IMG/VR virus record: IMGVR_UViG_3300033412_000644
DNA from: a virus
Direction: 5' to 3' (one strand)
Length of the DNA stretch: 51,129 bases
Part shown: in pieces, positions 3,214 through 24,171 of the stretch
How the letters are laid out: every line of letters starts with the position of its first letter
Numbering within the stretch: position 1 is the first letter of the stretch
The notes under the pieces: model-generated
Told to the model about the DNA's origin: nothing
The model's database searches: none
What the model saw: the letters and a program-made list of their open reading frames with translations, nothing else
Position numbers and translations under genes: made by a program

Positions 3214-3741
3214 ATGAAGAAGACGTCACAGCAGTGGTGGGCGGAGGTCAAGGCCGATCCTGACAAGCTCAACGGTTGGTTGATCAGGCAGTACCGAGGA
3301 GAAGCGACGGCGAGTCGACGCATCAAGGAATTCGCCGACCGCTACGCTCCGGACACGGTGACCAAGCGAATCCTCGGCATGATCGCCGACCAAGAGAAGC
3401 AACACGCAGAGTGGGTGTTGGAGCTGTTGAAGGCACGAGGCATCGAGCCCAACCTCAACGACGCCGAGAAGCGCTACTGGAAAGAGACGTTGCCCGACAT
3501 CAAGACGTTCGCGACCGGAGCCGCAGTGGGTGCTCACGCCGAGCGGATGCGCCTCGAGCGAATCGAGACCATTGCCAACGACCGCGGCGCGCCCCAAGAC
3601 ATCCGGAAGACCTTCCAGCTGATCCTGAAGGACGAGCTGTTCCACGCCGCTGCGTTTGAGCAGATGGCGGGACCCGAAGCGTTGGAGCAGACGCTCCCGT
3701 CGCACCGTCGAGGTCGCGAAGCGCTCGGCCTCGAGCCGTGA
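3214..3741 (+). CDS. ferritin-like helical protein (two ExxH motifs)
   Basis: EKQH and ELFH motifs about 100 aa apart in a predicted all-helical 175-aa protein. A diiron-carboxylate-like fold is inferred only. Confidence 0.4.
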   Translation: MKKTSQQWWAEVKADPDKLNGWLIRQYRGEATASRRIKEFADRYAPDTVTKRILGMIADQEKQHAEWVLELLKARGIEPNLNDAEKRYWKETLPDIKTFATGAAVGAHAERMRLERIETIANDRGAPQDIRKTFQLILKDELFHAAAFEQMAGPEALEQTLPSHRRGREALGLEP

Positions 3742-4735: not shown

Positions 4736-5107
4736 ATGGCAGAGAGCAAGCTGTTCTACGTCTGGGTGACGATGATCAGCGAACCCAACGCGGAGCGCTT
4801 GGTCGGCAAGCTCGTTCGCAGGAACTGGAAGGTGCAGGCCTTGGGCAATCACCTGGTGCTGCACAGCCAGGAGAGCCCGTGTGCCTTGGTCGCCATCTCA
4901 CTGTCGCGGACTGAGCCGTTGAAGAAAGGCGAGGAGGTCGGTTACACTGCCGTCCTCGAAGAAGTCAAGGACGTGCTGAAGCGCCTCGACGTCAAGTACA
5001 TGAACCTCATCGTCACTGAGTCGACGGGCTGCACTTGGTGTTTGGGCAACATCAACCTCACGCAAGAAAAGAAGCAACTCGAAGAAGAGAAGAAGGGCCT
5101 CAACTGA
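4736..5107 (+). CDS. hypothetical protein
   Basis: Start lies 1 nt after the upstream stop. 123 aa; lysine/glutamate-rich C terminus. Confidence 0.4.
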   Translation: MAESKLFYVWVTMISEPNAERLVGKLVRRNWKVQALGNHLVLHSQESPCALVAISLSRTEPLKKGEEVGYTAVLEEVKDVLKRLDVKYMNLIVTESTGCTWCLGNINLTQEKKQLEEEKKGLN

Positions 5108-5871
5108 TGTTGCACGATTCATTGGGCGACCGCATGAAGGCCTACGAGGTCGCAGCGCGGACGGTGCTGCCTCACCGGCTGCCTGTCATCATTCGCGTCG
5201 ACGGCAAGGCATTTCACACCTACACTGCCAAGTGCGAGCGTCCATTCGACCGACGCTTGAGCGACGTCATGGTGTCGACGGCGAAGCGCCTGTGCGAAGA
5301 GATCCAGGGAGCCCAGTTGGCCTACACTCAGTCGGACGAGATTTCGATCCTGGTGCACGGCTACAAGAAGTTCGACACGCAGTCGTGGTTCGACAACCAA
5401 GTTCAGAAGATGACCAGCATCGCTGCGGCGACGGCATCATCACACTTCAGCCTCAACTCCTGGCTCATCTGGGGCGATTGGAAGGATGACACCTTCTACA
5501 AGCCCGCCGATGTCATGAAGGCGCTGCGACCGGCGACCTTCGACGCTCGCGTCTTCATCATCCCCGAGGCCGACGTCTGCAATTACTTCCTGTGGCGACA
5601 GCAGGACGCGACCCGCAACTCAGTCCAGATGCTAGCTCGCTCGCTGTACTCGCACAAGCAGTGCAACAACAAGAACGGCGTCGAGCTGCAGGAGATGTGC
5701 TTTCAAAAGGGTCACAACTGGAACGACCTGGAGCCTCGGTGGAAACGCGGCGTCTGCATCCTCCGGCCGCTGACCAACGACCGGAACCCATGGCACCTCG
5801 ACGACCAGATCCCGATCTTCTCACAGGATCGTAGCTACATCAATGACCTGCTGAAGCTTGAGGAAGAGTGA
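5107..5871 (+). CDS. Thg1-like protein (tRNA-His guanylyltransferase family)
   Basis: MKAYE...RLPVIIRVDGKAFHTYT...RPFD...SDEISIL matches the Thg1 N-terminal catalytic region (RxDGxxFHxF, PxD). TGATG overlap with the upstream gene. Confidence 0.72.
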   Translation: MLHDSLGDRMKAYEVAARTVLPHRLPVIIRVDGKAFHTYTAKCERPFDRRLSDVMVSTAKRLCEEIQGAQLAYTQSDEISILVHGYKKFDTQSWFDNQVQKMTSIAAATASSHFSLNSWLIWGDWKDDTFYKPADVMKALRPATFDARVFIIPEADVCNYFLWRQQDATRNSVQMLARSLYSHKQCNNKNGVELQEMCFQKGHNWNDLEPRWKRGVCILRPLTNDRNPWHLDDQIPIFSQDRSYINDLLKLEEE

Positions 5872-6795: not shown

Positions 6796-7029
6796 ATGCA
6801 CACCATTGAGCTCGATTTTGCCCACGATTGCGACCACACTCGGGATAGTCAGAACTTGGCGCAACGACACGGGTGCTCAGTGCGTCTACTCAAGGAGTTC
6901 GGCCCGGCGGGCGGCAATCCTCTGTACCAATTCACCGGCACCCGCTTGAATCTGGTGTCCATGCTTAGCGAGTTCTGTCAGGACCGCGACACCCTCAACC
7001 ACCAACTGACACGCATCAGGAACACATGA
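6796..7029 (+). CDS. hypothetical protein
   Basis: 77-aa ORF filling the gap. ATGA overlap with rnh. Confidence 0.3.
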   Translation: MHTIELDFAHDCDHTRDSQNLAQRHGCSVRLLKEFGPAGGNPLYQFTGTRLNLVSMLSEFCQDRDTLNHQLTRIRNT

Positions 7030-7841
7030 CAATTCTCTGCATCGACGGCTACAACTTCATCCACCGTGCCCGTGGCGGGTTCAAGTTGGGCGACTGGCCC
7101 GTCGTCTTCAACTTCGTTCGCAACCTCCGAGCAACGGTCGAACAGTTCAACCCGACCCGCGTCTACTTCGTCCTCGAGGGAGTGCCTCGGGCTCGGAAGA
7201 TTTTGATGCCTGAGTACAAGGCCAACCGTGTCGTCGACTACGACGACAAGGAGACACAGGCCTTCCTCCGCCAGATGCACGTCATCATCGACATGATCGA
7301 GGCGTACTATCCGATGTCGGTCGTCCGACACCCGAACTTCGAGGGAGACGACGTCATCTACAACCTGATCAAGCGGTCATCGACGGCAGTGCCGTGGGTC
7401 GTCGTCAGCAATGATGGTGACTTCACACAACTGCTCAATGAGTTCCCGCAGGTCACCGTCTACAATCCGATGCTGAAGGAGACGATCGTCAAACCCAACT
7501 ACGACTACGTCACCTGGAAGGCGCTGCGTGGTGACGGCAGTGACAACGTCAAGGGGGTCCGCGGCGTCAGCGACAAGCGTGCCGAGGAGCTCGCTTCGGA
7601 TCCCGAGAAGTTGAAGGCGTTCCTATCAGATCCCGAGGCCGCCCTCACCTTCCAACGCAACTACATCATCATCAAGTTCCACGGGTGGTCCGAGGAAACG
7701 ATGGGAGAGATGACGTGCTCGACACCAGTCAAGGATTGGGCCGCAGTGGCCAAGACCTTCGAGACGATGAAGTTCCAGTCGCTTCTCAAGGAGGCCACGT
7801 GGCAGAAGTACCAGGCGACGTTCGACCCGCTGTGGGGGTAG
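7026..7841 (+). CDS. rnh: T4-type RNase H / 5'-3' exonuclease (FEN family)
   Basis: VVSNDGDFTQL matches T4 ISSDGDFTQL. FEGDDVIY matches YEADDHIA. ALRGDGSDNVKGV matches the H3TH motif KGDKKDNVASV. LCIDGYNF is a PIN-like N-terminal motif. Confidence 0.8.
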   Translation: MTILCIDGYNFIHRARGGFKLGDWPVVFNFVRNLRATVEQFNPTRVYFVLEGVPRARKILMPEYKANRVVDYDDKETQAFLRQMHVIIDMIEAYYPMSVVRHPNFEGDDVIYNLIKRSSTAVPWVVVSNDGDFTQLLNEFPQVTVYNPMLKETIVKPNYDYVTWKALRGDGSDNVKGVRGVSDKRAEELASDPEKLKAFLSDPEAALTFQRNYIIIKFHGWSEETMGEMTCSTPVKDWAAVAKTFETMKFQSLLKEATWQKYQATFDPLWG

Positions 7842-12861: not shown

Positions 12862-13182
12862 ATGAACGTTCTGAAGGAGTACATCCAGTCGATGCTGGCC
12901 GAAGTTCGCCGTGATGAGAAGTTCATTGCGAAGCTGAAGGGCAGCAAGCGACTTGAACCCGACGTGCCCAACATGGGCAAGCAGGTCGCCGGTGAGTGGA
13001 TGTCCGGCCTAGAAATGGAATTGGGTCGACACCTGACTCGCGGCGAGCAGCGAGACGTGATGCTGTTCGTCAAGTCGAGGTGGGCAGGCCTGATGAAGCG
13101 TTACGGCAATGAAGTGATGGCGCGACAGGCGCTGCTGCAGCAGCTCGACAACAAGTTCAATACGTTGAGGATGGGACCATGA
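12862..13182 (+). CDS. hypothetical protein
   Basis: First ATG follows the upstream stop. 106 aa. Confidence 0.4.
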   Translation: MNVLKEYIQSMLAEVRRDEKFIAKLKGSKRLEPDVPNMGKQVAGEWMSGLEMELGRHLTRGEQRDVMLFVKSRWAGLMKRYGNEVMARQALLQQLDNKFNTLRMGP

Positions 13183-13613
13183 GCATCAAAAGTACATTGA
13201 AGAAGATCGGCGCGACGCTGACCATCGCCGGAGCGACGGCCGCGGCGTGCGTCGGCTGCCCGAAGCAACCCGATCCGGTGACGCCTCAGCCGCCGGTCAT
13301 CACTGATCAGGCATCGTGCCAGGCGGCGTGCGACAACCTGCGGGCGCTGGGCTGCGACGAGGGAAACCCGATCGACACCGGCGCACCCTGCACTGCCAGC
13401 AACCAGTGCCAGTCGGGCCAGACGTGCTCGGCTTTGGGCACCTGCATCGTCAGCTGCGTCCAGTTTTGCATGGACACCGAGAATGCCGGCGTCTGGCTGG
13501 ATCCGGTGTGCGTCAGCAAGATCACCAGCTGCGGTCAAATCGACCAGTGCCCGGCCGCGCAGCCCAAGGCCAAGGCATGCACAGGCAGCGAGTGTCGCAT
13601 CATCGCCAACTGA
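13179..13613 (+). CDS. secreted Cys-rich (lipo)protein
   Basis: Signal peptide ending AAAC, followed by a Pro-rich segment and about 20 cysteines. Confidence 0.45.
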   Translation: MSIKSTLKKIGATLTIAGATAAACVGCPKQPDPVTPQPPVITDQASCQAACDNLRALGCDEGNPIDTGAPCTASNQCQSGQTCSALGTCIVSCVQFCMDTENAGVWLDPVCVSKITSCGQIDQCPAAQPKAKACTGSECRIIAN

Positions 13614-13657
13614 AGACGCTGCGGGTGTACATCCGCGAGGTCCTGGATGGTTTTTCC

Positions 13658-14146
13658 ATGGCCGGCGCCCGTCGCTTCGAGGCTCCTCCGGGCAACCTGA
13701 GGTACGACGCGATGACGACCGGTCAAACGGGAGGCCACATCTTGAGCGACGAACAGGCCGAGCAGGACAAGCAGAAGCAGAAGACGATGAAGGCGGCGAC
13801 GGTGCTGGTCATCGCCGACGACGGCAAGGTGCTGGCGGTCAGCCGGCGCGACGACCCGTCGGCCTTCGGCCTGCCAGGAGGTAAGGTCGACCCGGGCGAG
13901 ACGCTAGAACAAGCTGCGGCTCGTGAGCTCCAAGAGGAAACAGGCCTGACGGCGACCGACCTCCGCCCCGTCTTCACTCGCCAGGAGGATGACGGCTTCA
14001 CCACGACGACGTTCGTCGGCAAGGTGTCAGGCCAGATCAACACCGACGAGGAGGGCGTCATCCGGTGGGTCGACCCCGAGGTCCTGTTCGCGGGACCCTT
14101 TGGCGGCTACAACCGCAAGTTGTTCGCCCAGTTGGGGCTCAAGTAG
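13658..14146 (+). CDS. NUDIX hydrolase
   Basis: Nudix box GLPGGKVDPGETLEQAAARELQEETGL. Start uncertain (13658, 13712 or 13787); the longer upstream ORF overlaps the previous gene. Confidence 0.75.
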   Translation: MAGARRFEAPPGNLRYDAMTTGQTGGHILSDEQAEQDKQKQKTMKAATVLVIADDGKVLAVSRRDDPSAFGLPGGKVDPGETLEQAAARELQEETGLTATDLRPVFTRQEDDGFTTTTFVGKVSGQINTDEEGVIRWVDPEVLFAGPFGGYNRKLFAQLGLK

Positions 14147-14171
14147 CCCACGAAAACGCCTACCTATCGGA

Positions 14172-14846
14172 ATGGTGTCCAACCTTCGACAGTACATTCG
14201 ACTTCTCGTCGAGGCGGCGGTGGGCGGCGAGCAGGCTGCTTCACAAGGTTTGGCGCTGTTCCGGAAGCAACAGGGTCACCAGGTCGTCTACATCCTCTAC
14301 GATGCTAAAGCGCTGGTCGACGCATCTCAGGAGCCCGGCTTCCTGTCGTCCCGGATGTCGAAGCCGATCGATGAGATCCTCTTCGGCTACGTCAAGGCCT
14401 TTCCTCACGCAATGGACAGCTGTTGGAACGCGACCGAAATCAAGTTCTCGGCAGCGACCAAAGGCTACGGTCCGTTGATGTACGACATCGTCATGAGCGA
14501 TAGCGAGGGTGGCCTGATGCCTGACCGCGTCAGCGTGTCGCCCGCAGCTCAGAAGGTCTACCAGTTCTACAAGAAGCGCGGTGACGTTGACGTCAAGCCC
14601 TTCGACGACATCGAAGACCCGAAGACGCCCGACGAAATCGACGACTGCACCTTGATGAACGACCCCAACAAGTTCCTCAACTACGCCTACGATGGTCCCG
14701 GCCAGAGCGGTGCCAAGGCGAAGCTGATGCAGAATCATGAGAAGGTCGTCGATGAGATCGAGAAGAAGGGTGACCTGAAGCGGAATGCCATCGAAGGCAT
14801 CCTGGTCAACATGGGCCACACTTTCTTCGACAAGAAGTATGGGTGA
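14172..14846 (+). CDS. hypothetical protein
   Basis: Internal ATG just after the NUDIX stop. 224 aa. Confidence 0.45.
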   Translation: MVSNLRQYIRLLVEAAVGGEQAASQGLALFRKQQGHQVVYILYDAKALVDASQEPGFLSSRMSKPIDEILFGYVKAFPHAMDSCWNATEIKFSAATKGYGPLMYDIVMSDSEGGLMPDRVSVSPAAQKVYQFYKKRGDVDVKPFDDIEDPKTPDEIDDCTLMNDPNKFLNYAYDGPGQSGAKAKLMQNHEKVVDEIEKKGDLKRNAIEGILVNMGHTFFDKKYG

Positions 14847-14878
14847 AAATCGCTTGCCTCACGGTGTAGTGTCACCGC

Positions 14879-15073
14879 ATGAGCGTCAAAGCTGAAGGAC
14901 CCGAGTACCTGGTCGAGTTGGCGAAGGCGCAGGGAATTGCCTGCGCGACGGTGAAAGACGGCCACGTGTTGGTCTTCACCAAGAGTCACTTGGAGATGCT
15001 GCTGGCGGCGATGGCCGAGAAGCAACAGGACAAGTGCATCGTCTTCGTCAAGCGACCGGAGTTCAACGGATGA
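14879..15073 (+). CDS. hypothetical small protein
   Basis: 64 aa. ATGA overlap with the next gene. Confidence 0.35.
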   Translation: MSVKAEGPEYLVELAKAQGIACATVKDGHVLVFTKSHLEMLLAAMAEKQQDKCIVFVKRPEFNG

Positions 15074-16167
15074 GATTCGAGCCGGGATTCGTCCAGGGAC
15101 TCCGCGACGACCTGAAGCAAGTGCGCAGCGACTACCGCGACCGAGTGGAACGGCTCGGCGGTCTGACGGGTGAAGAGCTCGTCAAGTTGGTCAGCGCACC
15201 GCGGGAAGACCAAGTCGCGTTTCCGGACCACCCAACTCACCGCGACCTCGACACCTACCTCAACGCTGAAGTCCACCGCAGCGTCGGCGTCGACGCGATC
15301 AAGAACGGAGAGGTAGGTTACATCATCCTCGCTGGCGGCGCGGGCACCCGAATCGGTGGGCCCAAGGCGCTGATGCAGCTACCAGGCCTGGGCCTGTCGT
15401 TGCTGGCACAGAAGGTGATGTCGGCCAACGTCGAAGGACACGCTCTGCCGCTGTACATCATGACATCGCCAGGCATGTTGACGGACATCGGCCGGACGTT
15501 GAGCAGCCTGTCGCCCCTGCCTCAAGGCATCGCCTTTGAGCAGTTCGAGTCGTATCGTCTGACTCCCGACAATCGTTTGGCGTTTTTGAAGCCGAACGTA
15601 CCGGACCTTTATCCGACAGGTCACGGCGACGTGGGCATGGCGATCAGGACCTCGGGCGCTTTGGCCGAGAACCCCAACATCAAGCACTTCATCATCGTCA
15701 ATGTTGACAATGTGTGTGGCACTCCCGACCCGATCGTACTGGGTCATCACATCGCCACCAATGCACCGGTGACGTGTGAAGTCGTCGCTCGCAATGAAAG
15801 CGACAAAGCAGGCGGAGTGCTGGCGTGGGTCGACAACATGCTGCAGGTCGTCGAGGCGTTCCGGTTGGAGCCCAGCTTCGTCGAGGACTCGACGTACACC
15901 AACACCAACACCATGATCATCCGACGGGATGTGCTGGAGGCTGACATCACGTGGAAGTGGCACCGCGTCCGCAAGCAAGTCGGGACTCGCCTCGTCATCC
16001 AGCACGAGCGCCTGTTGCAGCAGTACACCGCGCTGCACTCCACGCGTTATGTCGTGGTGCCGCGAGAACAACGCTACTTCCCGATCAAGGATGAGGCTGC
16101 CCTGCAAGAAGCAGGCAAGCTCTTCAATGGCAACCCCATGAAGAGCGTGGTAAAATGCGAACCGTGA
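15070..16167 (+). CDS. UDP-sugar pyrophosphorylase (UDPGP family, UAP1/USP-like)
   Basis: GYIILAGGAGTRIGGPKAL nucleotide-binding loop (LAGGxGTRLG) and PTGHGDV motif. Confidence 0.65.
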   Translation: MRFEPGFVQGLRDDLKQVRSDYRDRVERLGGLTGEELVKLVSAPREDQVAFPDHPTHRDLDTYLNAEVHRSVGVDAIKNGEVGYIILAGGAGTRIGGPKALMQLPGLGLSLLAQKVMSANVEGHALPLYIMTSPGMLTDIGRTLSSLSPLPQGIAFEQFESYRLTPDNRLAFLKPNVPDLYPTGHGDVGMAIRTSGALAENPNIKHFIIVNVDNVCGTPDPIVLGHHIATNAPVTCEVVARNESDKAGGVLAWVDNMLQVVEAFRLEPSFVEDSTYTNTNTMIIRRDVLEADITWKWHRVRKQVGTRLVIQHERLLQQYTALHSTRYVVVPREQRYFPIKDEAALQEAGKLFNGNPMKSVVKCEP

Positions 16168-16595
16168 TTCCGAAAAGGTCGCCGTACGGACTCATCCAAG
16201 AAGACTTGTGGCCCAACGAGTGGCTCATCCTCGTCAGCTGCATGATGCTGAACTGCACGACGAGGAAGCAGGTCGAGAAGGTGCTACCGCCTTTCATCGC
16301 TGCGTGGCCCACGCCTCAGGCGTTTCTGAAAGCTGACCCGGAATCGATCCAGGCGATGATCAGGCCGTTGGGCTTCGCCAAGCGCAGGACGCAGAACCTG
16401 CTGAAGATGACGGAACGCTATCTAGCGGCGCCGTGGGAGCACGCTCACGAGCTGCCGGGCATCGGCGACTACGCGGCCCGAGCGTGGGAGATCTTCTGCC
16501 GCGATACATTGGGCGATGAACCGCCCAAGGATCATGCTTTGGTCCAGTACTGGACCTGGAGGAAGCAACATGAGCAACGCGAGGCGAATCGCTGA
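16155..16595 (+). CDS. MBD4-like HhH-GPD DNA glycosylase
   Basis: LWPNEWLILVSCMMLNCTTRKQ ... ELPGIGDYAARAWEIFC is colinear with the MBD4 glycosylase domain (DPWKLLIATIFLNRTSGKM ... ELHGIGKYGNDSYRIFC). Confidence 0.62.
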   Translation: MRTVIPKRSPYGLIQEDLWPNEWLILVSCMMLNCTTRKQVEKVLPPFIAAWPTPQAFLKADPESIQAMIRPLGFAKRRTQNLLKMTERYLAAPWEHAHELPGIGDYAARAWEIFCRDTLGDEPPKDHALVQYWTWRKQHEQREANR

Positions 16596-16893
16596 AAAGG
16601 CGAAGCCGAAGGCGCCTAGGGCGCCACGTGCCAAGAAGGTCAAGGTCGACCTGTCCAGCTTGCCGGACGCCATCGTCGATGGCAAACTCACCGTGCCCGT
16701 CAAGAGCAAGATCGTCTTTGAGAGGACGATCAACAAGAAGACAGCCGTCCATGAAGGACACATCTGGGGCTTCGATGAAGCGACCGGAGATGTATCGATC
16801 TGGGATGAGACGCGGGGACAGTTCTACGGCTTCAACGTGAGCCAGGCGCACCTGGTCAACGTCAAAGTGTCACCGGGGTCGGGGCTTCCCTAG
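16570..16893 (+). CDS. hypothetical basic protein
   Basis: ATG at 16570, Lys/Arg-rich N terminus. Overlaps the upstream gene by 26 nt. Confidence 0.4.
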   Translation: MSNARRIAEKAKPKAPRAPRAKKVKVDLSSLPDAIVDGKLTVPVKSKIVFERTINKKTAVHEGHIWGFDEATGDVSIWDETRGQFYGFNVSQAHLVNVKVSPGSGLP

Positions 16894-17673
16894 GAAGCTG
16901 CGGATCGACTCCAGGTGAACGTACATCGACGCATTGGGTGCCGGAATCAGCCGTGAGGCGATGCCGCATAGTTCACCGTTGTCATTGAAGCCCGCACCGC
17001 CGGAGTTGCCCTTGTAGACGGGACCCGACACCTGCATCCAGGGGCCGACGACGCCCGACTTGCGAAACGGACGGAAGTCTTCTTCGCGGTAGGCGGCGAC
17101 TGTGGCCGGAAAGTACGTGTAGTACATGCCGACGACGTGGCCGACGATGTGAAGGTTCTCGCCCACCGCCGGTTGAGCGTCCGCGAGACGTGCAACGTGG
17201 TGTTCAGGCATGTCCTTGACGTCCTCAACCACCATGAGCGCCAGGTCATGCGCCTTGTCGTGCTTCAGCACCTTGGCAACGTGGAGCGCCTTGGGCTCCT
17301 TCCAGACGCCGGTCACTTCCTTGTCAACGATGTAGTTGATCTTGAAGCCGTCTTCCAGGTCCTGCACCATCTTCTCGGCTGCATCCTCATCGTCGCTGTC
17401 GCCCATCATCTCGGAGACGACAGCCTCGACGGGAGCTCGAGCACAGTGGTCAGCAGTCAGAATCTTGTCCTTGTCGACCCAGACTCCGGTGCAGAAAGGA
17501 ACGATGTCCTCATCATCGTCCCGGTGAACCAGAGCGACGGTGTCGCTCTTCAGTTCGTCGACCAACGTTGGTCGAGCTTCCGGATGTCTGACTTGGGAAT
17601 GGACACAGCACCCCGCCAGGGCACTGAACAACAACACCAGCACCATCGGCAAGAAGGGCTTCAGATTCTTCAT
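16870..17673 (-). CDS. trypsin-like serine protease (S1), lipoprotein
   Basis: Lipobox signal (LFSALAGC). Catalytic His (TADHCA), Asp, and Ser in GNSGGAGF. Confidence 0.75.
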   Translation of the reverse strand: MKNLKPFLPMVLVLLFSALAGCCVHSQVRHPEARPTLVDELKSDTVALVHRDDDEDIVPFCTGVWVDKDKILTADHCARAPVEAVVSEMMGDSDDEDAAEKMVQDLEDGFKINYIVDKEVTGVWKEPKALHVAKVLKHDKAHDLALMVVEDVKDMPEHHVARLADAQPAVGENLHIVGHVVGMYYTYFPATVAAYREEDFRPFRKSGVVGPWMQVSGPVYKGNSGGAGFNDNGELCGIASRLIPAPNASMYVHLESIRSFLGKPRPR

Positions 17674-17750
17674 AACGACACCTCTGGATCATAGCTATTG
17701 GGTTGCGCTAAGGTTGTCCTGTGGGCGACGTCCAGTGTAGGATCCGCCAC

Positions 17751-18617
17751 ATGCCTGAAGGTCCGGAGCTGGCTCGCAGCCGAGATCATCTGCGAAAATT
17801 GGTGCAAGGCAAACGTCTGCGGACGTTTGGCATCAACCGCAATCACGGCGGCAGCACCGGCGGACGTTACGCCGACAAGGACCCCGAGGGAATGCTGGAG
17901 TTCCTCGGCTCGCTCAAGGCGACCGAGGCCGTCATCGACTCTGTCAACGTCAAAGGCAAGTTCATGTGGTGGACGCTGGCCTTGAAGGACGGCACTGCCT
18001 GGTGGCTGTGGTGCACCTACGGGATGTCAGGGCAGTGGACCACCAACAAGCCTGACAAGCACACCGCGGCGACGGCGTGGGTCGACAACCCCGACGGCAG
18101 TGGACTCCTGGCCGTCAACTTCCGGGACCCACGCCACTTCGGCACTCTCAAGTTCGTCAACAATCAGAAGCAGATGGAGCGCAAGCTGGCGTCGTTGGGC
18201 CCCGACATGCTCAACGACCCGCCTGACACGACCAAGTTCCGCCAGGCGCTGCTCCGCAAGCATGACCGTACGTTGGCTGAGGTGTTGATGGACCAGTCGG
18301 TCGTCAGCGGCGTCGGCAACTACGTCAAAGCCGAGAGCCTGTATCTCGCCGAGCTGTCGCCTCACCGCCTGGTGCGGGACCTCAAGACCGCCGAATTCGA
18401 GCACTTGCGGCAGCAGATCATCAATGTAATGCGCGCCAGCTACAACAATGGCGGAGCAACCATCCGTTCCTACGTGAACGTAGATGGCACCAAAGGCGGT
18501 ATGACAAGCCGCTTTGCGGTGTATGGTAACAAGACTGACCCGATGGGCAACCCCGTAGTGAAGGAAGAGACCGCTGATGGTCGCACCACCCACTGGGTAC
18601 CCACCATTCAGAAGTGA
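17751..18617 (+). CDS. Fpg/Nei family DNA glycosylase (endonuclease VIII-like)
   Basis: Canonical MPEGPEL N terminus (Pro2 nucleophile, Glu3) and an H2TH region. No zinc-finger cysteines at the C terminus. Confidence 0.75.
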   Translation: MPEGPELARSRDHLRKLVQGKRLRTFGINRNHGGSTGGRYADKDPEGMLEFLGSLKATEAVIDSVNVKGKFMWWTLALKDGTAWWLWCTYGMSGQWTTNKPDKHTAATAWVDNPDGSGLLAVNFRDPRHFGTLKFVNNQKQMERKLASLGPDMLNDPPDTTKFRQALLRKHDRTLAEVLMDQSVVSGVGNYVKAESLYLAELSPHRLVRDLKTAEFEHLRQQIINVMRASYNNGGATIRSYVNVDGTKGGMTSRFAVYGNKTDPMGNPVVKEETADGRTTHWVPTIQK

Positions 18618-18629
18618 AAAAGAAAACAC

Positions 18630-19379
18630 ATGACGAAACCCAATAGCACTGAAATCATCTTCGTCGTCGACCGCAGTGGTTCGATGTCCAGCATCGCCAA
18701 GGCAATGAGCGACGGCTTCGATGAGTTCATCAACAAGCAGAAGCAAGAGCCCGGCGAGTGCAAGGTCACCGCCACACAGTTCGACGACAAGTACGACGTG
18801 CTCTACACTGCGAAGCCTCTCAACGAGGTGACGGCCTACACGCTGGAGCCGCGCGGCATGACCGCACTGCTCGACGCCATCGGCAAGACGATCATCGACA
18901 CCGGGTCGCGCCTGGCAAAGATGTCGGAGTCGCAGCGCCCGAGCCAGGTGTTGTTCGTCATCATCACTGATGGCGGCGAGAACTCTTCACAGGAGTTCAA
19001 GGGCGAGGAAGGCCGCAAGCGCGTCTTCGACATGATCACCCACCAGCGCGAGAAGTACCAGTGGGAGTTCGTCTTCCTCGGTGCCAACCAGGACGCCATT
19101 GCTGTCGGCACCAGCCTCGGCATCAGCGCCACCAACAGCGTCACCTACGACGCCAACGCCGTCGGCAGCAAGGGCCTGATGCGAGGCCTTTCGGCCAACG
19201 TGGCCCGCTACCGTTCCAGCGGTCAGGGTCGCATGGACAACTTGTACGACCAGGCGTCCTACAACGCCGCCGTCAAGGACGAGGACGACGACCAGAATTC
19301 GCTACTGAAGGCAACGCCCGACCCCAAGGTCACCATCGCAGGCATCGGCTCTACGCCGTCCACGCCTGTGAAGCCGTAA
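18630..19379 (+). CDS. von Willebrand factor A domain protein
   Basis: MIDAS motif DRSGSMS after beta-strand IIFVV, then a downstream TALLDAIG motif. Confidence 0.7.
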   Translation: MTKPNSTEIIFVVDRSGSMSSIAKAMSDGFDEFINKQKQEPGECKVTATQFDDKYDVLYTAKPLNEVTAYTLEPRGMTALLDAIGKTIIDTGSRLAKMSESQRPSQVLFVIITDGGENSSQEFKGEEGRKRVFDMITHQREKYQWEFVFLGANQDAIAVGTSLGISATNSVTYDANAVGSKGLMRGLSANVARYRSSGQGRMDNLYDQASYNAAVKDEDDDQNSLLKATPDPKVTIAGIGSTPSTPVKP

Positions 19380-19932: not shown

Positions 19933-20203
19933 CATCGATCGTTTGCTGGCGCCGTGGTTGGTGGGACGCCCACCCAACTACACGATGGACAGCGCCGCCA
20001 AGTACACGGTCGCCGTCGGCTATTGGTTGGCCGAGGAGCTGACGCGCATCGGCTGCAATGAAGCTGACCGCAAGACGCAGTGTTGGAAGTTCAACCGACA
20101 CAGCCGGACCTGGGACATCTTCGACGTTGCCGCTGAGTGCATGAATGAAGCAGTCGAAGGGCGCGTTGAACAGAATCGGAAGCCACACCGGAGGTGGGGA
20201 TGA
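19853..20203 (+). CDS. hypothetical protein
   Basis: 116-aa ORF. Start uncertain (the internal ATG at 19985 avoids an overlap). Confidence 0.3.
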   Translation: MMELKDGQAAGTSTYTAELIKQRVDADIDRLLAPWLVGRPPNYTMDSAAKYTVAVGYWLAEELTRIGCNEADRKTQCWKFNRHSRTWDIFDVAAECMNEAVEGRVEQNRKPHRRWG

Positions 20204-20535
20204 TGCGCTATCGGCACATCCACCGGCGTCCCAAGCGACGGGTTCGACCCGGCCGCAGCAAGATTCACGGTCGGGGTGCCTTCGCTACGCACGTCCTATT
20301 GAAGGGTGAGGTGTTCACCATCAATCACCTAGGACGGCGCAAGTGGGGTGGGTTCAATCACTCCTGTCGACCCAACGTCATCTTGTGCTGGACCCAAGAC
20401 GGTGATCAGTTCTGTGTCGCTCTGCGTCGCATCGAACGGCGCGAGGAGTTGACCGTCAGCTACAGCATCAAGCACGGCCGCCTTCGCAGCGGCGAACGCT
20501 GCAACTGCCCACACCACAAGAGGAAATCAAAATGA
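20200..20535 (+). CDS. minimal SET-domain protein lysine methyltransferase
   Basis: GRGAFATHVLLKGEVF, NHSCRPNV and EELTVSY motifs, with a Cys-rich post-SET tail. GGAGGTGGGG Shine-Dalgarno at 20190-20199. Confidence 0.65.
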   Translation: MMRYRHIHRRPKRRVRPGRSKIHGRGAFATHVLLKGEVFTINHLGRRKWGGFNHSCRPNVILCWTQDGDQFCVALRRIERREELTVSYSIKHGRLRSGERCNCPHHKRKSK

Positions 20536-20985: not shown

Positions 20986-21007
20986 TGTGAGGTACCGCAA
21001 CGACAAC

Positions 21008-21913
21008 ATGCTGCTGCGCATTGCTCAGGCTGATGCCTACGGCATGGCGCGTGAATACGTCAAGACCAAAGACGCACCTGATCACGTTGCCGAGTGCCTC
21101 AAGCTGGAGCGCTACCTGCGCCACCCTACATACCATAAGTTGCCGGCCGGCACCTACACTGACGACACCCAGATGTCGATCGCAGTGAGCGAGGTCCTGA
21201 TCAACAAGCACGGCGACGCCACCCACGAAGAGTGGGCCGAGGCGTTCTTCCAGGCGTTCAAGCGCGACCAACGAGACGGCTACTCCCGCCACTTCCAGGC
21301 GATCCTCGAGGAGGCCAGGGACAGCACCCACATGCGGTCGTTGCTGACGCCGACGTCGACTGCCAACGGCGCTTGCATGCGTGCAGTCCCGTTGGGCGTG
21401 TTGCCCAGCAAGAAGACGCTGCTTGAGGTCGCCGCCAAACAGGCGATGGTGACCCACGCGACCTACGGTGGCATCAATTCAGCCAGCGCCGTCGCCCTGA
21501 TGTCACACTTTGCCCTCTACGACCGTCGAGACTTTGCTTGCCTCTACGACTGGTGTTGCCATTGGCTGCCGGCGTTTGAGCTTTTCCGTGAGCCTTGGGT
21601 GGGCCCGGTGCAGGAGAATTCAAAGGACAAGAGGGGTCTCGGAGTCGGTATGAACACCGCGTGGGCGGTGAGCACCCTGCTCCGCGAAGAGAAGTCTTTG
21701 ATGGCGATCCTACGGCGCACCATCGAGTGGGGAGGCGACACCGATTCTGTCGCCGCGGTCGCCTGGGGAATTGCCTCGGCGCGGTACCAGGACGAGCAGC
21801 TGCCTGAGTTCTTCGAAAGAGATCTCGAAAAAGATAGTGGCAGCGCGTATGGGCCTACGTACCTGAAAGCGCTAGGCAAACAGCTGATGGACGCCTACAA
21901 CCCGCGCAGATAA
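21008..21913 (+). CDS. ADP-ribosylglycohydrolase (ARH/DraG family)
   Basis: C-terminal GGDTDSVAAVAWGIA matches the ARH GGDTDT motif. N-terminal LRIAQADAYGM. Start is 20987 (GTG) or 21008 (ATG). Confidence 0.65.
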   Translation: MLLRIAQADAYGMAREYVKTKDAPDHVAECLKLERYLRHPTYHKLPAGTYTDDTQMSIAVSEVLINKHGDATHEEWAEAFFQAFKRDQRDGYSRHFQAILEEARDSTHMRSLLTPTSTANGACMRAVPLGVLPSKKTLLEVAAKQAMVTHATYGGINSASAVALMSHFALYDRRDFACLYDWCCHWLPAFELFREPWVGPVQENSKDKRGLGVGMNTAWAVSTLLREEKSLMAILRRTIEWGGDTDSVAAVAWGIASARYQDEQLPEFFERDLEKDSGSAYGPTYLKALGKQLMDAYNPRR

Positions 21914-22990: not shown

Positions 22991-23356
22991 ATGAGCTACA
23001 ACATCGACAGCGTCGATACGCCAGTGCTCAACGCTTGGATCCTGAAGAAGGACCTAAAGCGACTGTACAAGAAGCTCGAGGGCGACCTGCCCGAGATGAA
23101 CGTACTGGAAGAACACTTGGATGACGAGCCCGACGAGGACGGTCGCATCAAGTTGCGCAGCTTCGAATGGTGCGGCACTTGGTCGGGCAACTCGTGGAAG
23201 ACGCTAATCAAGCAGGTGGCGCCCAAAGTGATGGGCGAAGTCGAAGCCATCTTCACTTGGGAAGGTGGCGACAGCATCGGCGGTCTCCTCATCAAGGACG
23301 GCAAGGTCGCTGAAGTCGATGTCAAACAACAATTGGTCAGACCAGAAGGTTGGTGA
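22991..23356 (+). CDS. hypothetical protein
   Basis: 121 aa. Confidence 0.4.
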   Translation: MSYNIDSVDTPVLNAWILKKDLKRLYKKLEGDLPEMNVLEEHLDDEPDEDGRIKLRSFEWCGTWSGNSWKTLIKQVAPKVMGEVEAIFTWEGGDSIGGLLIKDGKVAEVDVKQQLVRPEGW

Positions 23357-24171
23357 CAGTGTGCACGCTGATCATCTTGAATGAGCACCATGACGATTGG
23401 CCGTTGATCATTGCGGCCAACCGCGACGAATTCTATGATCGGCCGTCAGCAGGTCCCGACCTCTTTGACACGCTGCCGCTTGCCATCATTGCTCCCAAGG
23501 ATTTGGAGCGAGGTGGCACCTGGATGGGTGCGACGCAGACGGGTTGGTTTGTCGGTCTCACCAACCAAGACGACGGCGACCACCGTGAAGGCATGGAGTC
23601 GCGAGGTCAAGTGGTCGCCGACTGCCTACGACTGTCGGGACACAAGGAGATTGCGCGCTACCTCATTGGCCTCAACCCAGAGAAGTACAACCCATTCAAC
23701 CTCGTCTTCGGCCGACCGGGAGCGATGTTCCTGAGCAAGGTGCACCGCGGTACTGAGGTCGACATGGAGATCATCCCGCAAGGCATCACCGTCATTTCGA
23801 ACGACTGTTCGGATGCCAGGGCGTACCAACGCAAGGTCAACCACGCGCTGGTGCTGGCGGGGTCGGTGGAATTCGATGACCCACTCGATGAGGTCGTGCG
23901 AAAGCTTCACTTGGTGTTGAGTGATCACTCACACTCGTATCCGAACCCGTACCAGTCATTGTGTGTTCACGATACCGAACGTGGCTTTGGTACACGATCT
24001 TCGGCAGTTGTCGCGGTGTCAAAAGAGGGCGACGTACGCTACTATCACTCTGAGGGGCCTGCGTGTCAGGTTGACACCATTCCGCTAGTGCGTGAACTGA
24101 TGACGTTGGATCTCAGCGATTTGGAAGAACCCACTGAGCTGACAGACGACGACATCGAGGTGATCGGATGA
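23350..24171 (+). CDS. NRDE-family protein (TANGO2-like, DUF833)
   Basis: LIIAANRDEFYDRPS and GGTWMG...GLTNQ match the TANGO2 N terminus closely. GTG start overlapping the upstream stop. Confidence 0.78.
   Translation: MVTVCTLIILNEHHDDWPLIIAANRDEFYDRPSAGPDLFDTLPLAIIAPKDLERGGTWMGATQTGWFVGLTNQDDGDHREGMESRGQVVADCLRLSGHKEIARYLIGLNPEKYNPFNLVFGRPGAMFLSKVHRGTEVDMEIIPQGITVISNDCSDARAYQRKVNHALVLAGSVEFDDPLDEVVRKLHLVLSDHSHSYPNPYQSLCVHDTERGFGTRSSAVVAVSKEGDVRYYHSEGPACQVDTIPLVRELMTLDLSDLEEPTELTDDDIEVIG

What the first reader, a model, noticed from the sequence alone, without database searches (positions are those of the whole stretch)
13658..18617. Cluster of nucleotide/DNA-repair and sugar-nucleotide genes (NUDIX, UDP-sugar pyrophosphorylase, MBD4-like glycosylase, Fpg/Nei)
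Two base-excision glycosylases with different specificities sit within 3 kb of a NUDIX hydrolase and a UDPGP-family pyrophosphorylase. The MBD4-like enzyme acts on T:G and U:G mismatches that arise from deamination. Fpg/Nei acts on oxidised bases. T4-like phages hypermodify DNA using nucleotide-sugars, so a phage-encoded UDP-sugar pyrophosphorylase suggests sugar-modified DNA, or surface glycan modification. The glycosylases may proofread modified bases or attack host DNA.
Basis: inference. Interest (0 to 1): 0.5.

Follow-up and report, generated by a model that had tools for sequence, protein, structure and literature searches.

The report
Phage DNA-repair block with sugar-nucleotide gene
A soil jumbo phage carries a conserved block of DNA-repair genes (an MBD4-like and a Nei glycosylase, a NUDIX hydrolase, a flap nuclease) with a host-like UDP-sugar enzyme inserted in it, and its close relatives also encode a dCMP hydroxymethylase fused in an operon to a UDP-sugar epimerase, so the block probably maintains and supplies a chemically modified (hydroxymethyl-cytosine, possibly sugar-decorated) genome.

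Summary
NUDIX (13577-14146), a minimal UDPGP-family pyrophosphorylase (15070-16167), an MBD4-like HhH-GPD glycosylase (16155-16595) and a zincless NEIL1/mimivirus-type Nei (17751-18617) are all there, with intact catalytic motifs.

The window belongs to an uncultivated T4-related soil jumbo phage of about 358 kb. The arrangement is conserved:
- The MBD4-like gene follows UDPGP in 20 of 20 UDPGP-anchored loci.
- Many relatives keep FEN, NUDIX, MBD4-like and Nei without UDPGP, so UDPGP is an insertion into an older repair block.
- UDPGP's only cellular relatives are in Polyangiaceae, so it looks host-like.

The main new result is that MBD4-like genes in phages travel with cytosine-C5-modifying ThyA homologs. 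They do so in the 5mC phage Xp12, in 16 distant loci, and in at least three UDPGP-bearing contigs of this clade. There a T4 gp42-type dCMP hydroxymethylase overlaps a UDP-hexose 4-epimerase gene, 34-35 kb upstream.

Two gaps remain. No glycosyltransferase was recognised anywhere. In the window's own phage the hydroxymethylase site, about 6 kb beyond the retrievable DNA, could not be read.

The parts
7026..7841 (+). 5'-3' exonuclease / flap endonuclease (FEN). It is the conserved upstream member of the block.
   Evidence: Pfam 5_3_exonuc_N and 5_3_exonuc on the called gene. NCBIfam matches the Pol I 5'-nuclease region at 1e-23. Found 2-9 kb upstream of the MBD4-like gene in 43 of 80 IMG/VR loci and in 19 of the 21 UDPGP-bearing loci; L001 and L012 are too short upstream to hold it.
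13577..14146 (+). NUDIX hydrolase with an intact Nudix box. Substrate unassigned: a MutT/NudG-like nucleoside-triphosphate pyrophosphohydrolase, and a candidate pool sanitiser or dCTPase.
   Evidence: PF00293 at 2.3e-22. All NCBIfam equivalog scores fall below their cut-offs, the best being PRK08999, MutT and NudG. PDB best hits are BdRppH and MutT-like enzymes. PHROG 1198 MutT/NUDIX at 2.8e-27. Lies directly upstream of UDPGP, or of the MBD4-like gene where UDPGP is absent.
14172..14846 (+). Unknown 224-aa protein. It is conserved only in the closest relatives, and the slot between NUDIX and UDPGP is variable.
   Evidence: No Pfam, NCBIfam or PHROG hit. tblastn finds it only in L001 and L005. 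The single-sequence AlphaFold model is unusable, pLDDT 34.5.
14879..15073 (+). Unknown 64-aa protein whose stop overlaps the UDPGP start (ATGA).
   Evidence: Conserved at 45-78% identity in the high-GC subclade. The junction gap is -4 nt.
15070..16167 (+). Minimal UDPGP-family sugar-1-phosphate uridylyltransferase of 365 aa. It has the catalytic core only, with no C-terminal beta-helix domain, and its sugar specificity is unknown.
   Evidence: PF01704. 196 metagenomic homologs of about 355-365 aa. Conserved motifs are GGxGTR..PK, PxGHGD, NVDN and the late Lys. AlphaFold pLDDT is 93, with Foldseek TM 0.70-0.79 to both UGP and UAP1/AGX. The only cellular relatives in GTDB are in Polyangiaceae MAGs.
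16155..16595 (+). MBD4-like monofunctional HhH-GPD DNA glycosylase, predicted to act on G:T, G:U and G:5hmU mismatches. It overlaps the UDPGP stop by 13 nt.
   Evidence: PDB MBD4 at 4e-23 over residues 5-140, with D126 aligned to human D560, Q15 to Q449 and Y106 to Y540. The family has 366 members in which the Asp is nearly invariant. It follows UDPGP in 20 of 20 loci.
16570..16893 (+). Unknown 107-aa protein with a basic N-terminus. It is a conserved downstream neighbour of the MBD4-like gene.
   Evidence: tblastn finds it at 33-81% identity in many loci, including divergent ones. It has no family hit.
16870..17673 (-). Trypsin-like serine protease with a lipoprotein signal (..LAGC). It lies in the interval on the opposite strand and is probably unrelated to DNA metabolism.
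   Evidence: Trypsin_2 at 1.5e-15. Conserved on the minus strand in 20 of 80 MBD4-like loci.
17751..18617 (+). Nei (endonuclease VIII) of the NEIL1 / mimivirus Nei1 type, with a zincless finger. Predicted to be a bifunctional glycosylase and AP lyase.
   Evidence: PDB 3a42/3a45/3a46 (mimivirus Nei1) at 2e-40 over the full length. The N-terminal MPEGPE, the KGKF Lys and the C-terminal RTTHW are aligned, and the C-terminal domain has no Cys. Pfam H2TH, Fapy_DNA_glyco and Fapy_DNA_glyco_C. Its start lies within 1 kb of the MBD4-like start, 406-914 nt downstream, in 15 distant IMG/VR loci.
18630..19379 (+). vWA-like protein (PHROG 7371) that follows Nei in relatives. Its role is unknown.
   Evidence: Weak VWA Pfam hits. 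phrog_7371 at 7e-65. Syntenic after Nei.

Best explanation
The interval is the core of a vertically inherited genome-maintenance block in a clade of T4-related soil jumbo phages of about 360 kb, whose host is probably a myxobacterium. It most likely serves a genome built with 5-hydroxymethylcytosine-derived bases.

Shown:
- The block encodes catalytically intact NUDIX, UDPGP, MBD4-like and Nei proteins, with a FEN upstream.
- Block order is conserved.
- UDPGP is a host-like insertion that always sits immediately upstream of the MBD4-like gene.
- Close relatives carry, 34-35 kb upstream on the same contig, a T4 gp42-type dCMP hydroxymethylase. Its gene overlaps a UDP-hexose 4-epimerase gene.

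Inferred mechanism:
1. dCMP hydroxymethylase makes hm-dCMP. The NUDIX enzyme clears unwanted or damaged dNTPs, either canonical dCTP or oxidised nucleotides.
2. UDPGP, helped in some relatives by a phosphomannomutase, makes a UDP-hexose. The 4-epimerase converts it, and an unrecognised transferase would put the sugar on hmC.
3. Deamination of hmC or 5mC gives 5hmU or T opposite G, which ordinary uracil glycosylases do not handle. The MBD4-like enzyme removes these bases.
4. Nei removes oxidised pyrimidines and cleaves the abasic sites by beta,delta-elimination.
5. FEN and the phage polymerase and ligase finish the repair.
For: - Gene identities and catalytic residues.
- Source genome and clade. 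The identical ICL and MBD4-like proteins lie on a 357,674-bp contig. Relatives are 359-369 kb. A gp23-like segment is present.
- Conserved order. UDPGP is followed by the MBD4-like gene in 20 of 20 loci, with NUDIX and FEN upstream, and the block becomes compact in the most divergent members. Start and stop codons overlap at the u64/UDPGP, UDPGP/MBD4-like and MBD4-like/u107 junctions.
- MBD4-like and Nei form a pair. Nei starts within 1 kb of the MBD4-like start in 15 distant loci.
- Link to modified cytosine:
  - In Xp12 (5mC DNA) and Donnerlittchen the MBD4-like gene sits beside a nucleotide hydrolase and the ThyA-like dCMP methylase.
  - 16 distant loci have a ThyA homolog 6-10 kb away with Asp at E. 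coli position N177 and a PCT motif.
  - gp42-like genes lie on the same contigs as UDPGP and the MBD4-like gene. These are IMG/VR 3300009181_000033 and 3300035670_000351, ENA ERZ27279688:k141_1055159, and IMG/VR 3300028654_000384 and 3300031344_000003. Six more match by equal contig length.
  - Diagnostic residues are D143, C146, D169 and D177 in E. coli numbering, as in T4 gp42. They indicate hydroxymethylation, not 5-hydroxy or methyl (read against PMC13326640 section 28).
- Sugar link:
  - The 4-epimerase gene overlaps the gp42 start. Its best PDB matches are UDP-GlcNAc, UDP-GalNAc and UDP-Glc 4-epimerases at 1e-51.
  - A phosphomannomutase lies next to FEN in 4 relatives.
  - Phage-encoded NDP-sugar enzymes are known to cluster with ThyA homologs in glycosylated-DNA phages (PMC13326640).
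- Synteny places the window's own phage in this scheme. The order SOD ... CN_hydrolase ... ICL ... FEN-NUDIX-UDPGP-MBD4-like is the same in L232/L006 plus the window as in L284 and L231.
Against: - In the window's own phage the hydroxymethylase was not seen. The retrievable DNA stops in SOD, about 5.8 kb short of the expected site. No protein from the 357,674-bp contig was among the best 120 gp42 homologs.
- Some clade members (L225, L230, L234) have the epimerase but no gp42 at that site.
- No glycosyltransferase was recognised by Pfam or by PDB sequence search, in the window or next to gp42 or UDPGP in relatives.
- UDPGP is absent from many relatives that keep the repair genes, so its position may be historical and not functional.
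- The NUDIX substrate and the UDPGP sugar are unassigned.
- In the low-GC subclade the hmC decoration is more likely carbamoyl than sugar. A carbamoyltransferase sits beside the gp42-like gene (PMC8670742).
- Conserved gene order in T4-like phages can persist without any functional coupling.
Confidence: 0.5

Rival explanations
1. This is a generic phage-encoded base-excision repair island plus an unrelated metabolic gene. The glycosylases, NUDIX and FEN simply protect a very large genome from deamination, oxidation and (in relatives) UV damage during a long infection in soil. UDPGP is a host-derived auxiliary gene that feeds UDP-sugars to something other than DNA, such as host envelope or exopolysaccharide, virion protein glycosylation or general metabolism. 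It happens to sit there.
For: - UDPGP is missing from many relatives that keep FEN, NUDIX, MBD4-like and Nei.
- Its only cellular relatives are ordinary chromosomal genes of Polyangiaceae.
- No DNA glycosyltransferase was found.
- Relatives add a T4 endonuclease V-like pyrimidine-dimer glycosylase at the same site, which is classical repair.
- The window also holds rubrerythrin, and relatives hold SOD, both oxidative-stress genes.
- Giant viruses such as mimivirus carry Nei enzymes for plain repair. One search shows the similarity; the role is established knowledge.
Against: - It does not explain why MBD4-like genes recur next to or near dCMP-modifying ThyA homologs in unrelated phage lineages.
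- It does not explain why the UDP-hexose 4-epimerase gene overlaps the dCMP hydroxymethylase gene.
- It does not explain why UDPGP, once present, never leaves the position immediately upstream of the MBD4-like gene.
Confidence: 0.3
2. The block is counter-defence. The MBD4-like and Nei enzymes undo damage inflicted by host or competitor DNA cytosine deaminases or base-modifying toxins. NUDIX and UDPGP manipulate nucleotide or nucleotide-sugar pools or signals used by host immunity, for example by draining UTP through a UDP-sugar futile cycle or by hydrolysing signalling nucleotides.
For: - A G:U/G:T glycosylase would directly reverse the products of DNA deaminases (inference from the MBD4 family assignment).
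- NUDIX sits immediately beside UDPGP, so a synthesis-hydrolysis cycle is conceivable.
- An ADP-ribosylglycohydrolase lies 2.4 kb downstream of Nei.
Against: - No PADLOC or anti-defence homology was tested or seen.
- The genes behave as a stable core block, not as a fast-turnover accessory island.
- Nothing ties the NUDIX enzyme to signalling nucleotides.
Confidence: 0.07
3. There is no functional relationship at all. The genes are neighbours only because this part of a T4-like genome, like the lysozyme-NudE-DenV region of T4, is a conserved stretch of unrelated non-essential genes.
For: - The order lysozyme - NUDIX - (endonuclease V) in relatives resembles the T4 e / nudE / denV neighbourhood. 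The T4 map is from memory; the relatives are.
- A secreted protease sits on the opposite strand in the middle of the block.
- No shared promoter or terminator signals stand out above chance.
Against: - MBD4-like/Nei adjacency recurs in phages outside this clade and with different neighbours.
- Three different DNA glycosylases plus a flap nuclease lying together is unlikely without selection for co-expression.
- Translational overlaps link u64, UDPGP, MBD4-like and u107.
Confidence: 0.08

Closest known systems
Glycosylase domain of mammalian MBD4 (PDB 4e9e, 4dk9, 1ngn, 4ew4)
   Same: A full-length alignment of about 135 residues at 4e-23. The fold is HhH-GPD without an Fe-S cluster. The catalytic Asp (human D560), Gln449 and Tyr540 are conserved. 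The expected chemistry is monofunctional excision of T, U and 5hmU opposite G.
   Different: It has no methyl-CpG-binding domain and stands alone at 146 aa. The helix-invading Arg468 position is Cys, Gln or Leu, with a conserved Arg three residues later. It is phage-encoded and is linked to a NUDIX gene and to cytosine-modifying ThyA homologs, not to CpG methylation.
Mimivirus Nei1 (MvNei1, PDB 3a42/3a46) and human NEIL1
   Same: End-to-end similarity at 2e-40. It shares the N-terminal Pro-Glu, the catalytic Lys, the H2TH motif and a zincless finger with the conserved Arg. Both are virus-encoded.
   Different: It is in a bacteriophage and not a eukaryotic giant virus. It is paired with an MBD4-like gene, directly adjacent in many phages.
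Xanthomonas phage Xp12 group (Bradleyvirinae; all cytosines replaced by 5-methylcytosine)
   Same: It encodes an MBD4-like protein, 31-35% identical, next to a nucleotide hydrolase. The logic is the same: a T:G-type glycosylase in a genome made of C5-modified cytosine.
   Different: There the ThyA homolog is adjacent and of the methyl type (N143, D177). The genomes are 58-64 kb and hold no UDPGP, and no Nei lies beside the MBD4-like gene.
T4 glucosyl-hmC system, and the arabinosyl-5hoC (RB69, DLP3) and hexosyl (RL38JI) systems
   Same: All have a ThyA-family dCMP modifier, nucleotide kinases and hydrolases, and phage-encoded or host UDP-sugar supply. The clade's gp42 homolog shares the SDFMCT..MRSND..ND signature with T4 gp42. 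NDP-sugar enzymes cluster with the ThyA homolog (PMC13326640).
   Different: The sugar-activating enzyme is UDPGP-family and not a MurU/GalU-type NTP transferase. It lies about 35 kb from the hydroxymethylase. No glycosyltransferase has been identified. Dedicated MBD4-like and Nei repair genes have not been described for those systems.
5-carbamoyloxymethylcytosine module (MetaGPA study, PMC8670742)
   Same: The low-GC sister subclade has carbamoyltransferase - gp42-like - dCMP deaminase in a row. This matches the co-occurrence that defines that module.
   Different: No carbamoyltransferase was seen in the window's high-GC subclade, which has a 4-epimerase and UDPGP instead.
T:G repair genes coupled to 5mC methylation in cells (Vsr with Dcm in E. 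coli; Mig.MthI beside M.MthTI on pFV1). Cited from memory, not tested here.
   Same: It shows the same principle: a system that makes C5-modified cytosine carries its own repair of the deamination product.
   Different: The protein families differ. Vsr is an endonuclease and Mig is an Fe-S HhH enzyme. Methylation there is site-specific and does not replace the base genome-wide.

Membership tests
MBD4-type HhH-GPD glycosylase | HhH-GPD domain, with full-length similarity to the MBD4 catalytic domain | tested here: met
   PF00730 at 2.5e-9, above its cut-off. phmmer gives 4e-23 to 15 MBD4 chains over residues 5-140 of 146.
MBD4-type HhH-GPD glycosylase | Catalytic Asp (human D560) and base-contacting Gln449 and Tyr540 | tested here: met
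   KDHAL aligns to EDHKL, LIQED to LVQET and GIGDY to GIGKY. The Asp is at least 90% conserved, and Gln and Tyr are invariant in 27 family members.
MBD4-type HhH-GPD glycosylase | Helix-invading Arg468 | tested here: not met
   The aligned residue is Cys in the window protein and C, Q, R or L across the family. An Arg three residues later is nearly invariant and may substitute.
MBD4-type HhH-GPD glycosylase | No 4Fe-4S cluster loop, unlike EndoIII, MutY and Mig | tested here: met
   The sequence ends about 20 residues after the catalytic Asp and has no Cys-X6-Cys-X2-Cys-X5-Cys motif.
MBD4-type HhH-GPD glycosylase | Excision of T, U and 5hmU opposite G | not testable with these tools
   This needs an enzyme assay.
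Fpg/Nei (H2TH) glycosylase, NEIL1/MvNei1 subgroup | N-terminal Pro-Glu after Met, a catalytic Lys, the H2TH motif, and a zincless finger with a conserved Arg | tested here: met
   MPEGPEL, VKGKFMW and RTTHW are present, with no Cys in the C-terminal 60 residues. The alignment to MvNei1 is end to end. Pfam finds H2TH, Fapy_DNA_glyco and Fapy_DNA_glyco_C. NCBIfam fpg and nei scores fall below the equivalog cut-offs, so it is neither canonical bacterial Fpg nor canonical Nei.
UDPGP family (UDP-sugar pyrophosphorylases) | Pfam PF01704 above the gathering score, the nucleotide-binding loop, the PxGHGD and NxDN motifs, the catalytic Lys, and the fold | tested here: met
   73.5 bits against a cut-off of 22. 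The motifs are invariant in 32 homologs. Foldseek probability is 1.00 with TM 0.70-0.79 to UGP and UAP1.
UDPGP family (UDP-sugar pyrophosphorylases) | The C-terminal beta-helix / oligomerisation domain of eukaryotic UGP and UAP | tested here: not met
   The protein ends about 25 residues after the catalytic Lys. The match covers profile positions 57-338 of 413, and targets are 450-490 residues against 365 here.
UDPGP family (UDP-sugar pyrophosphorylases) | Sugar specificity (Glc-1-P, GlcNAc-1-P or another sugar) | tested here: inconclusive
   The protein is equidistant from UGP and UAP1 in both sequence and fold.
NUDIX hydrolases; MutT or NudG subfamily | Nudix box GX5EX7REUXEEXGU | tested here: met
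   The box GKVDPGETLEQAAARELQEETGL is complete.
NUDIX hydrolases; MutT or NudG subfamily | Equivalog-level match to a subfamily of defined substrate | tested here: not met
   All NCBIfam scores are far below their cut-offs: MutT 42 against 97.9, and NudG 37 against 156.
Phage glycosyl-hydroxymethylcytosine DNA system (T4 type) | dCMP hydroxymethylase (an Asp-type ThyA homolog) | tested here: inconclusive
   It is absent from the 51-kb window and from the 14 kb retrievable upstream.
Phage glycosyl-hydroxymethylcytosine DNA system (T4 type) | DNA glycosyltransferase | tested here: not met
   There is no T4 beta-GT similarity. No GT Pfam or PDB match was found for any ORF in the window or beside gp42 or UDPGP in relatives. 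The conserved unknown 454-aa neighbour of the epimerase remains a candidate.
Phage glycosyl-hydroxymethylcytosine DNA system (T4 type) | A source of UDP-sugar | tested here: met
   UDPGP is in the window. A UDP-hexose 4-epimerase lies beside gp42 in relatives.
Phage glycosyl-hydroxymethylcytosine DNA system (T4 type) | Modified base present in virion DNA | not testable with these tools
   This needs LC-MS or modification-dependent restriction.

The most novel reading that the evidence does not exclude
MBD4-like plus Nei is a dedicated, co-inherited repair pair for the deamination and oxidation products of C5-modified cytosines. It is found across many phage lineages that rebuild their DNA with 5mC or 5hmC-derived bases. 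This soil jumbo-phage clade in addition runs a self-contained pathway: phosphomannomutase in some members, then a minimal host-derived UDPGP, then a UDP-hexose 4-epimerase, then an unrecognised transferase, perhaps the conserved 454-aa protein beside the epimerase. The pathway would make a new glycosylated hydroxymethylcytosine, for example a galactosyl or N-acetylhexosaminyl form.
Probability: 0.3. Interest if true: 0.7.

Novelty: new variant of a known kind. Interest (0 to 1): 0.55.

Why it matters
Phages that replace cytosine with modified forms are known, but how they cope with the different deamination chemistry of those bases is not. 5mC deaminates to T and 5hmC to 5hmU, and both escape uracil glycosylase.

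A recurrent phage MBD4-like (and Nei) gene tied to dCMP-modifying enzymes would supply that missing repair step. It would also give a cheap genomic marker for modified-cytosine phages in metagenomes.

The clade also offers candidate reagents: a compact T/5hmU:G glycosylase and a minimal UDP-sugar pyrophosphorylase. It may carry an undescribed sugar-hmC modification in abundant soil jumbo phages, with consequences for restriction and CRISPR evasion and for how well such phages are recovered by sequencing.

Tried and rejected
- **Close DNA relatives.** None exist among 50,697 phage records.
- **UDPGP lookups.** The lookup with the GTG start at 15034 failed and the ATG at 15070 is the recorded start. 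A single-protein scan of IMG/VR found nothing, so alignments were needed.
- **Sugar specificity of UDPGP.** It could not be assigned from sequence or fold. The neighbourhoods of the Polyangiaceae homologs are uninformative.
- **NUDIX substrate.** It could not be assigned.
- **The 224-aa ORF between NUDIX and UDPGP.**
  - I suspected a GNAT-like motif by eye, but no family hit supports it.
  - The single-sequence AlphaFold model was useless, pLDDT 34.5, so no fold search was run on it.
- **The window's 346-aa protein (PHROG 10079).** I tested it for homology to the 339-aa protein upstream of the MBD4-like gene in Xp12. There is none.
- **Compositional footprint of modification.** CpG is not depleted (rho 1.11). 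Palindrome avoidance is only mild, so it says nothing decisive.
- **Promoter and terminator scan.** Nothing above chance.
- **Glycosyltransferase search.**
  - No T4 beta-GT similarity by tblastn.
  - Pfam at E up to 1 on unknown ORFs near gp42 and UDPGP found nothing.
  - PDB sequence searches with the 454-aa and 355-aa unknowns found nothing.
- **Reaching the hydroxymethylase site of the window's own phage.**
  - An exact 51-mer search of JGI contigs found nothing.
  - A CN_hydrolase-anchored scan recovered a contig of the same phage (98.7% nt) that stops about 5.8 kb short.
  - The last homolog search did not list a protein from the 357,674-bp contig among its best 120.
- **Rejected idea.** I rejected the view that the glycosylases attack host DNA, since neither family excises normal bases from matched pairs.
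- **Literature.** Searches found no prior description of phage MBD4-like glycosylases or UDPGP-family enzymes in DNA modification.

Full report
**What is in the interval**

Six-frame ORFs and codon-position GC give a run of tightly packed plus-strand genes. Gene calls on identical metagenomic contigs fix the starts. The genes are:
- NUDIX, 13577-14146
- an unknown 224-aa ORF, 14172-14846
- an unknown 64-aa ORF, 14879-15073
- UDPGP, 15070-16167
- an MBD4-like HhH-GPD protein, 16155-16595
- an unknown 107-aa ORF, 16570-16893
- a minus-strand trypsin-like lipoprotein, 16870-17673
- Nei, 17751-18617
- a vWA-like protein, 18630-19379

Junctions overlap by 4, 13 and 26 nt from the 64-aa ORF through the 107-aa ORF.

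- The MBD4-like protein aligns over its whole length to the human and mouse MBD4 glycosylase domain at 4e-23. The catalytic Asp, Gln449 and Tyr540 are conserved, and the invading Arg468 position is not.
- Nei is closest to mimivirus Nei1 at 2e-40, end to end. It has the Pro-Glu N-terminus and a zincless finger.
- UDPGP keeps every catalytic motif and folds confidently, pLDDT 93. Its fold is equidistant from UDP-glucose and UDP-GlcNAc pyrophosphorylases, and it lacks their C-terminal domain.
- NUDIX has a perfect Nudix box but no subfamily assignment.

**Where the window comes from**

There is no close DNA relative among isolated phages. Identical proteins lie on a 357,674-bp ENA contig and on several soil metagenome contigs. 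Relatives form contigs of 359-369 kb.

The window also encodes GroEL, IF-1, Thg1, isocitrate lyase, TANGO2, an ADP-ribosylglycohydrolase, a major-vault-protein-like protein, and a small ORF with a T4 gp23 segment. This is an uncultivated, T4-related jumbo phage.

In GTDB, the UDPGP's only cellular relatives (35-38% identity) are ordinary chromosomal genes in Polyangiaceae and Myxococcales MAGs. This suggests a myxobacterial host lineage and a host-derived gene.

**Is the arrangement conserved?**

I collected 21 loci anchored on UDPGP homologs, at 38-100% identity. The MBD4-like gene lies immediately downstream in all 20 loci that extend that far.
- NUDIX and a 5'-3' exonuclease (FEN) lie upstream.
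- The trypsin-like gene lies downstream on the opposite strand.
- Nei is present in about two-thirds of these loci.
- Eight loci add a T4 endonuclease V-like pyrimidine-dimer glycosylase directly before UDPGP.
- In the most divergent members the block shrinks to FEN-NUDIX-UDPGP-MBD4-like-u107-protease.

Anchoring on the MBD4-like gene instead gave 80 IMG/VR loci and shows the converse does not hold.
- Only 19 of the 80 have UDPGP.
- Many keep FEN, NUDIX, (endoV), MBD4-like and Nei without it.
- In 15 distant phages Nei starts within 1 kb of the MBD4-like start, 406-914 nt downstream.

The older and wider unit is therefore a repair block centred on an MBD4-like/Nei pair with NUDIX and FEN. UDPGP is a later insertion that has stayed fixed in one position.

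**The link to modified cytosine**

Among isolated phages the MBD4-like protein is found almost only in the Xp12 group, whose DNA carries 5-methylcytosine in place of cytosine. There it sits beside a nucleotide hydrolase, the ThyA-like dCMP methylase, dCMP deaminase and DHFR.

In 16 of the 80 IMG/VR loci a ThyA homolog lies 6-10 kb from the MBD4-like gene. All of them have Asp at the E. coli N177 position and PCT in place of PCH. That is the T4 gp42 / Xp12 dCMP-type signature and not that of true thymidylate synthase.

Searching with these proteins found gp42-like genes on jumbo contigs of the MBD4-like clade, 20-26 kb upstream of the MBD4-like gene. Two of those contigs also carry UDPGP. In one of them the order is:
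- Pol III alpha
- a P-loop kinase-like ORF
- carbamoyltransferase
- an unknown ORF
- gp42-like
- an NAD-dependent sugar epimerase
- thymidine kinase
- dCMP deaminase
- SOD
- further ORFs, then CN_hydrolase

The carbamoyltransferase, ThyA-family and dCMP deaminase combination is the published signature of 5-carbamoyloxymethylcytosine (PMC8670742).

**The window's own subclade**

The DNA just upstream of the window starts with a CN_hydrolase that is 70% identical to that orthologue. I anchored on it and found the same order in higher-GC relatives. A T4-type gp42 (SDFMCTNAVQY...MRSNDAILGYKND) sits at the expected place.

A homolog search with that fragment returned proteins whose longest-contig lengths equal those of UDPGP and MBD4-like proteins: 369,506, 345,630, 156,530, 136,509, 87,501 and 45,389 bp.

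Direct look-up confirms the co-occurrence. On ENA ERZ27279688:k141_1055159, the record that also carries the NUDIX-UDPGP-MBD4-like-protease-Nei block, the hydroxymethylase start overlaps the end of a UDP-hexose 4-epimerase gene. That epimerase's best PDB matches are UDP-GlcNAc, UDP-GalNAc and UDP-Glc 4-epimerases at 1e-51.

The 361-kb lineage shows the same u454-epimerase-gp42-TK-CCA-dCMP deaminase-SOD ... CN_hydrolase order, 35 kb upstream of its UDPGP.

I read the clade's residues against the diagnostic positions published for ThyA homologs. D143, C146, D169 and D177 indicate a hydroxymethylating enzyme, not a 5-hydroxy or methyl one (PMC13326640).

**What remains unproven**
- For the window's own phage, the retrievable sequence (L232, 98.7% identical to L006) ends inside SOD, about 5.8 kb short of where gp42 would be. 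Its hydroxymethylase is inferred from synteny only.
- Three relatives have the epimerase but no gp42 at that site.
- No glycosyltransferase was recognised in the window or beside gp42 or UDPGP in relatives. A conserved 454-aa unknown next to the epimerase is the best candidate.
- The UDPGP sugar and the NUDIX substrate are unknown.

**Mechanism proposed**

Shown:
- the gene identities and catalytic residues;
- the conserved block;
- the nested, host-like UDPGP;
- co-occurrence with gp42 and the epimerase in relatives.

Inferred:
- The phage builds hmC-type DNA.
- NUDIX removes dCTP or damaged dNTPs.
- UDPGP, with a phosphomannomutase in four relatives, feeds a UDP-hexose to the 4-epimerase. 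An unidentified transferase then decorates hmC.
- The MBD4-like enzyme removes T, U or 5hmU opposite G. These arise by deamination of modified or plain cytosine, and 5hmU:G and T:G are the established substrates of MBD4.
- Nei removes oxidised pyrimidines and cleaves the abasic sites.
- FEN and the replication enzymes complete the repair.

I give this composite reading about 0.5. The plainer rival, generic repair plus an unrelated sugar gene, gets about 0.3.

**Comparison with known systems and novelty**

Every protein family is known, and so are phage hmC pathways and phage-encoded nucleotide-sugar enzymes. Three things appear undescribed:
- a phage MBD4-like glycosylase, often paired with Nei, that tracks cytosine-C5 modification across lineages;
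- a minimal UDPGP-family enzyme as a stable phage gene. It has no PHROG family and essentially no hits in 50,697 phage genomes;
- the hydroxymethylase/4-epimerase operon in a soil jumbo-phage clade.

Literature searches found no prior account. I rate it a new variant of a known kind, with interest 0.55.

Noticed in passing
window 48396-51092 (-) and 46392-48362 (-): An 898-aa protein with major-vault-protein shoulder and vault-repeat domains (MVP_shoulder at 3.6e-30) sits next to a 656-aa SPFH/Band7 protein. This is an unusual, eukaryote-flavoured pair for a phage.
   Followed up: no
window 776-2128, ~3214-3741, 5035-5871, 20200-20535, 20987-21913, 23350-24171, 27159-28784, 33056-33409: The window is rich in auxiliary genes: isocitrate lyase, rubrerythrin, Thg1-like tRNA-His guanylyltransferase, a SET-domain protein, ADP-ribosylglycohydrolase, TANGO2, GroEL and translation factor IF-1.
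   Followed up: partly
window 43342-43776 (-): A 144-aa ORF carries a segment of the T4 gp23 major capsid protein (Pfam at 3e-9; 38% identity over 78 aa to Straboviridae capsid proteins). The surrounding minus-strand ORFs are all short, so it may be a gp23-derived small protein or a fragmented gene.
   Followed up: partly
L003/L004 9364-9834, L005 9498-10004, and L010, L012, L013, L014, L023: A T4 endonuclease V-like pyrimidine-dimer glycosylase (Pyr_excise) sits directly upstream of UDPGP in eight related loci. It is missing from the window's phage.
   Followed up: yes
L015 7316-8059; also L049, L053, L058: A eukaryote-type phosphomannomutase lies next to FEN, within 5 kb of the MBD4-like gene, in four low-GC relatives. 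A conserved 193-aa protein with a weak DNA polymerase beta thumb match lies beside it.
   Followed up: partly
L193 3128-12990: In a 298-kb relative, a carbamoyltransferase, a gp42-like ThyA homolog, a sugar epimerase, thymidine kinase and dCMP deaminase lie in a row after Pol III alpha, which carries a weak Hint/intein hit. This matches the published 5-carbamoyloxymethylcytosine module.
   Followed up: yes
L231 10951-12082; L284 10764-11881: Two paralogous proteins of about 185 aa follow the dCMP hydroxymethylase. One has a weak proteasome-subunit Pfam match at 3.6e-4.
   Followed up: no
L026-L032 (GTDB): The only cellular relatives of the phage UDPGP among 185,579 species genomes are in Polyangiaceae, Polyangiales and Myxococcales MAGs, where they sit in unrelated chromosomal contexts. 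This hints at the host lineage. A 2018 review notes that the T-even-like myxophage Mx1 may contain unidentified minor pyrimidines (PMC6070905).
   Followed up: partly
window 13179-13613: A Cys-rich 144-aa predicted lipoprotein overlaps the called NUDIX start by 37 nt. It has no family hit.
   Followed up: no
L225, L230, L234: Some clade members carry two epimerase paralogues after Pol III alpha but no gp42 homolog at that site. The cytosine-modification module is therefore variable within the clade.
   Followed up: partly
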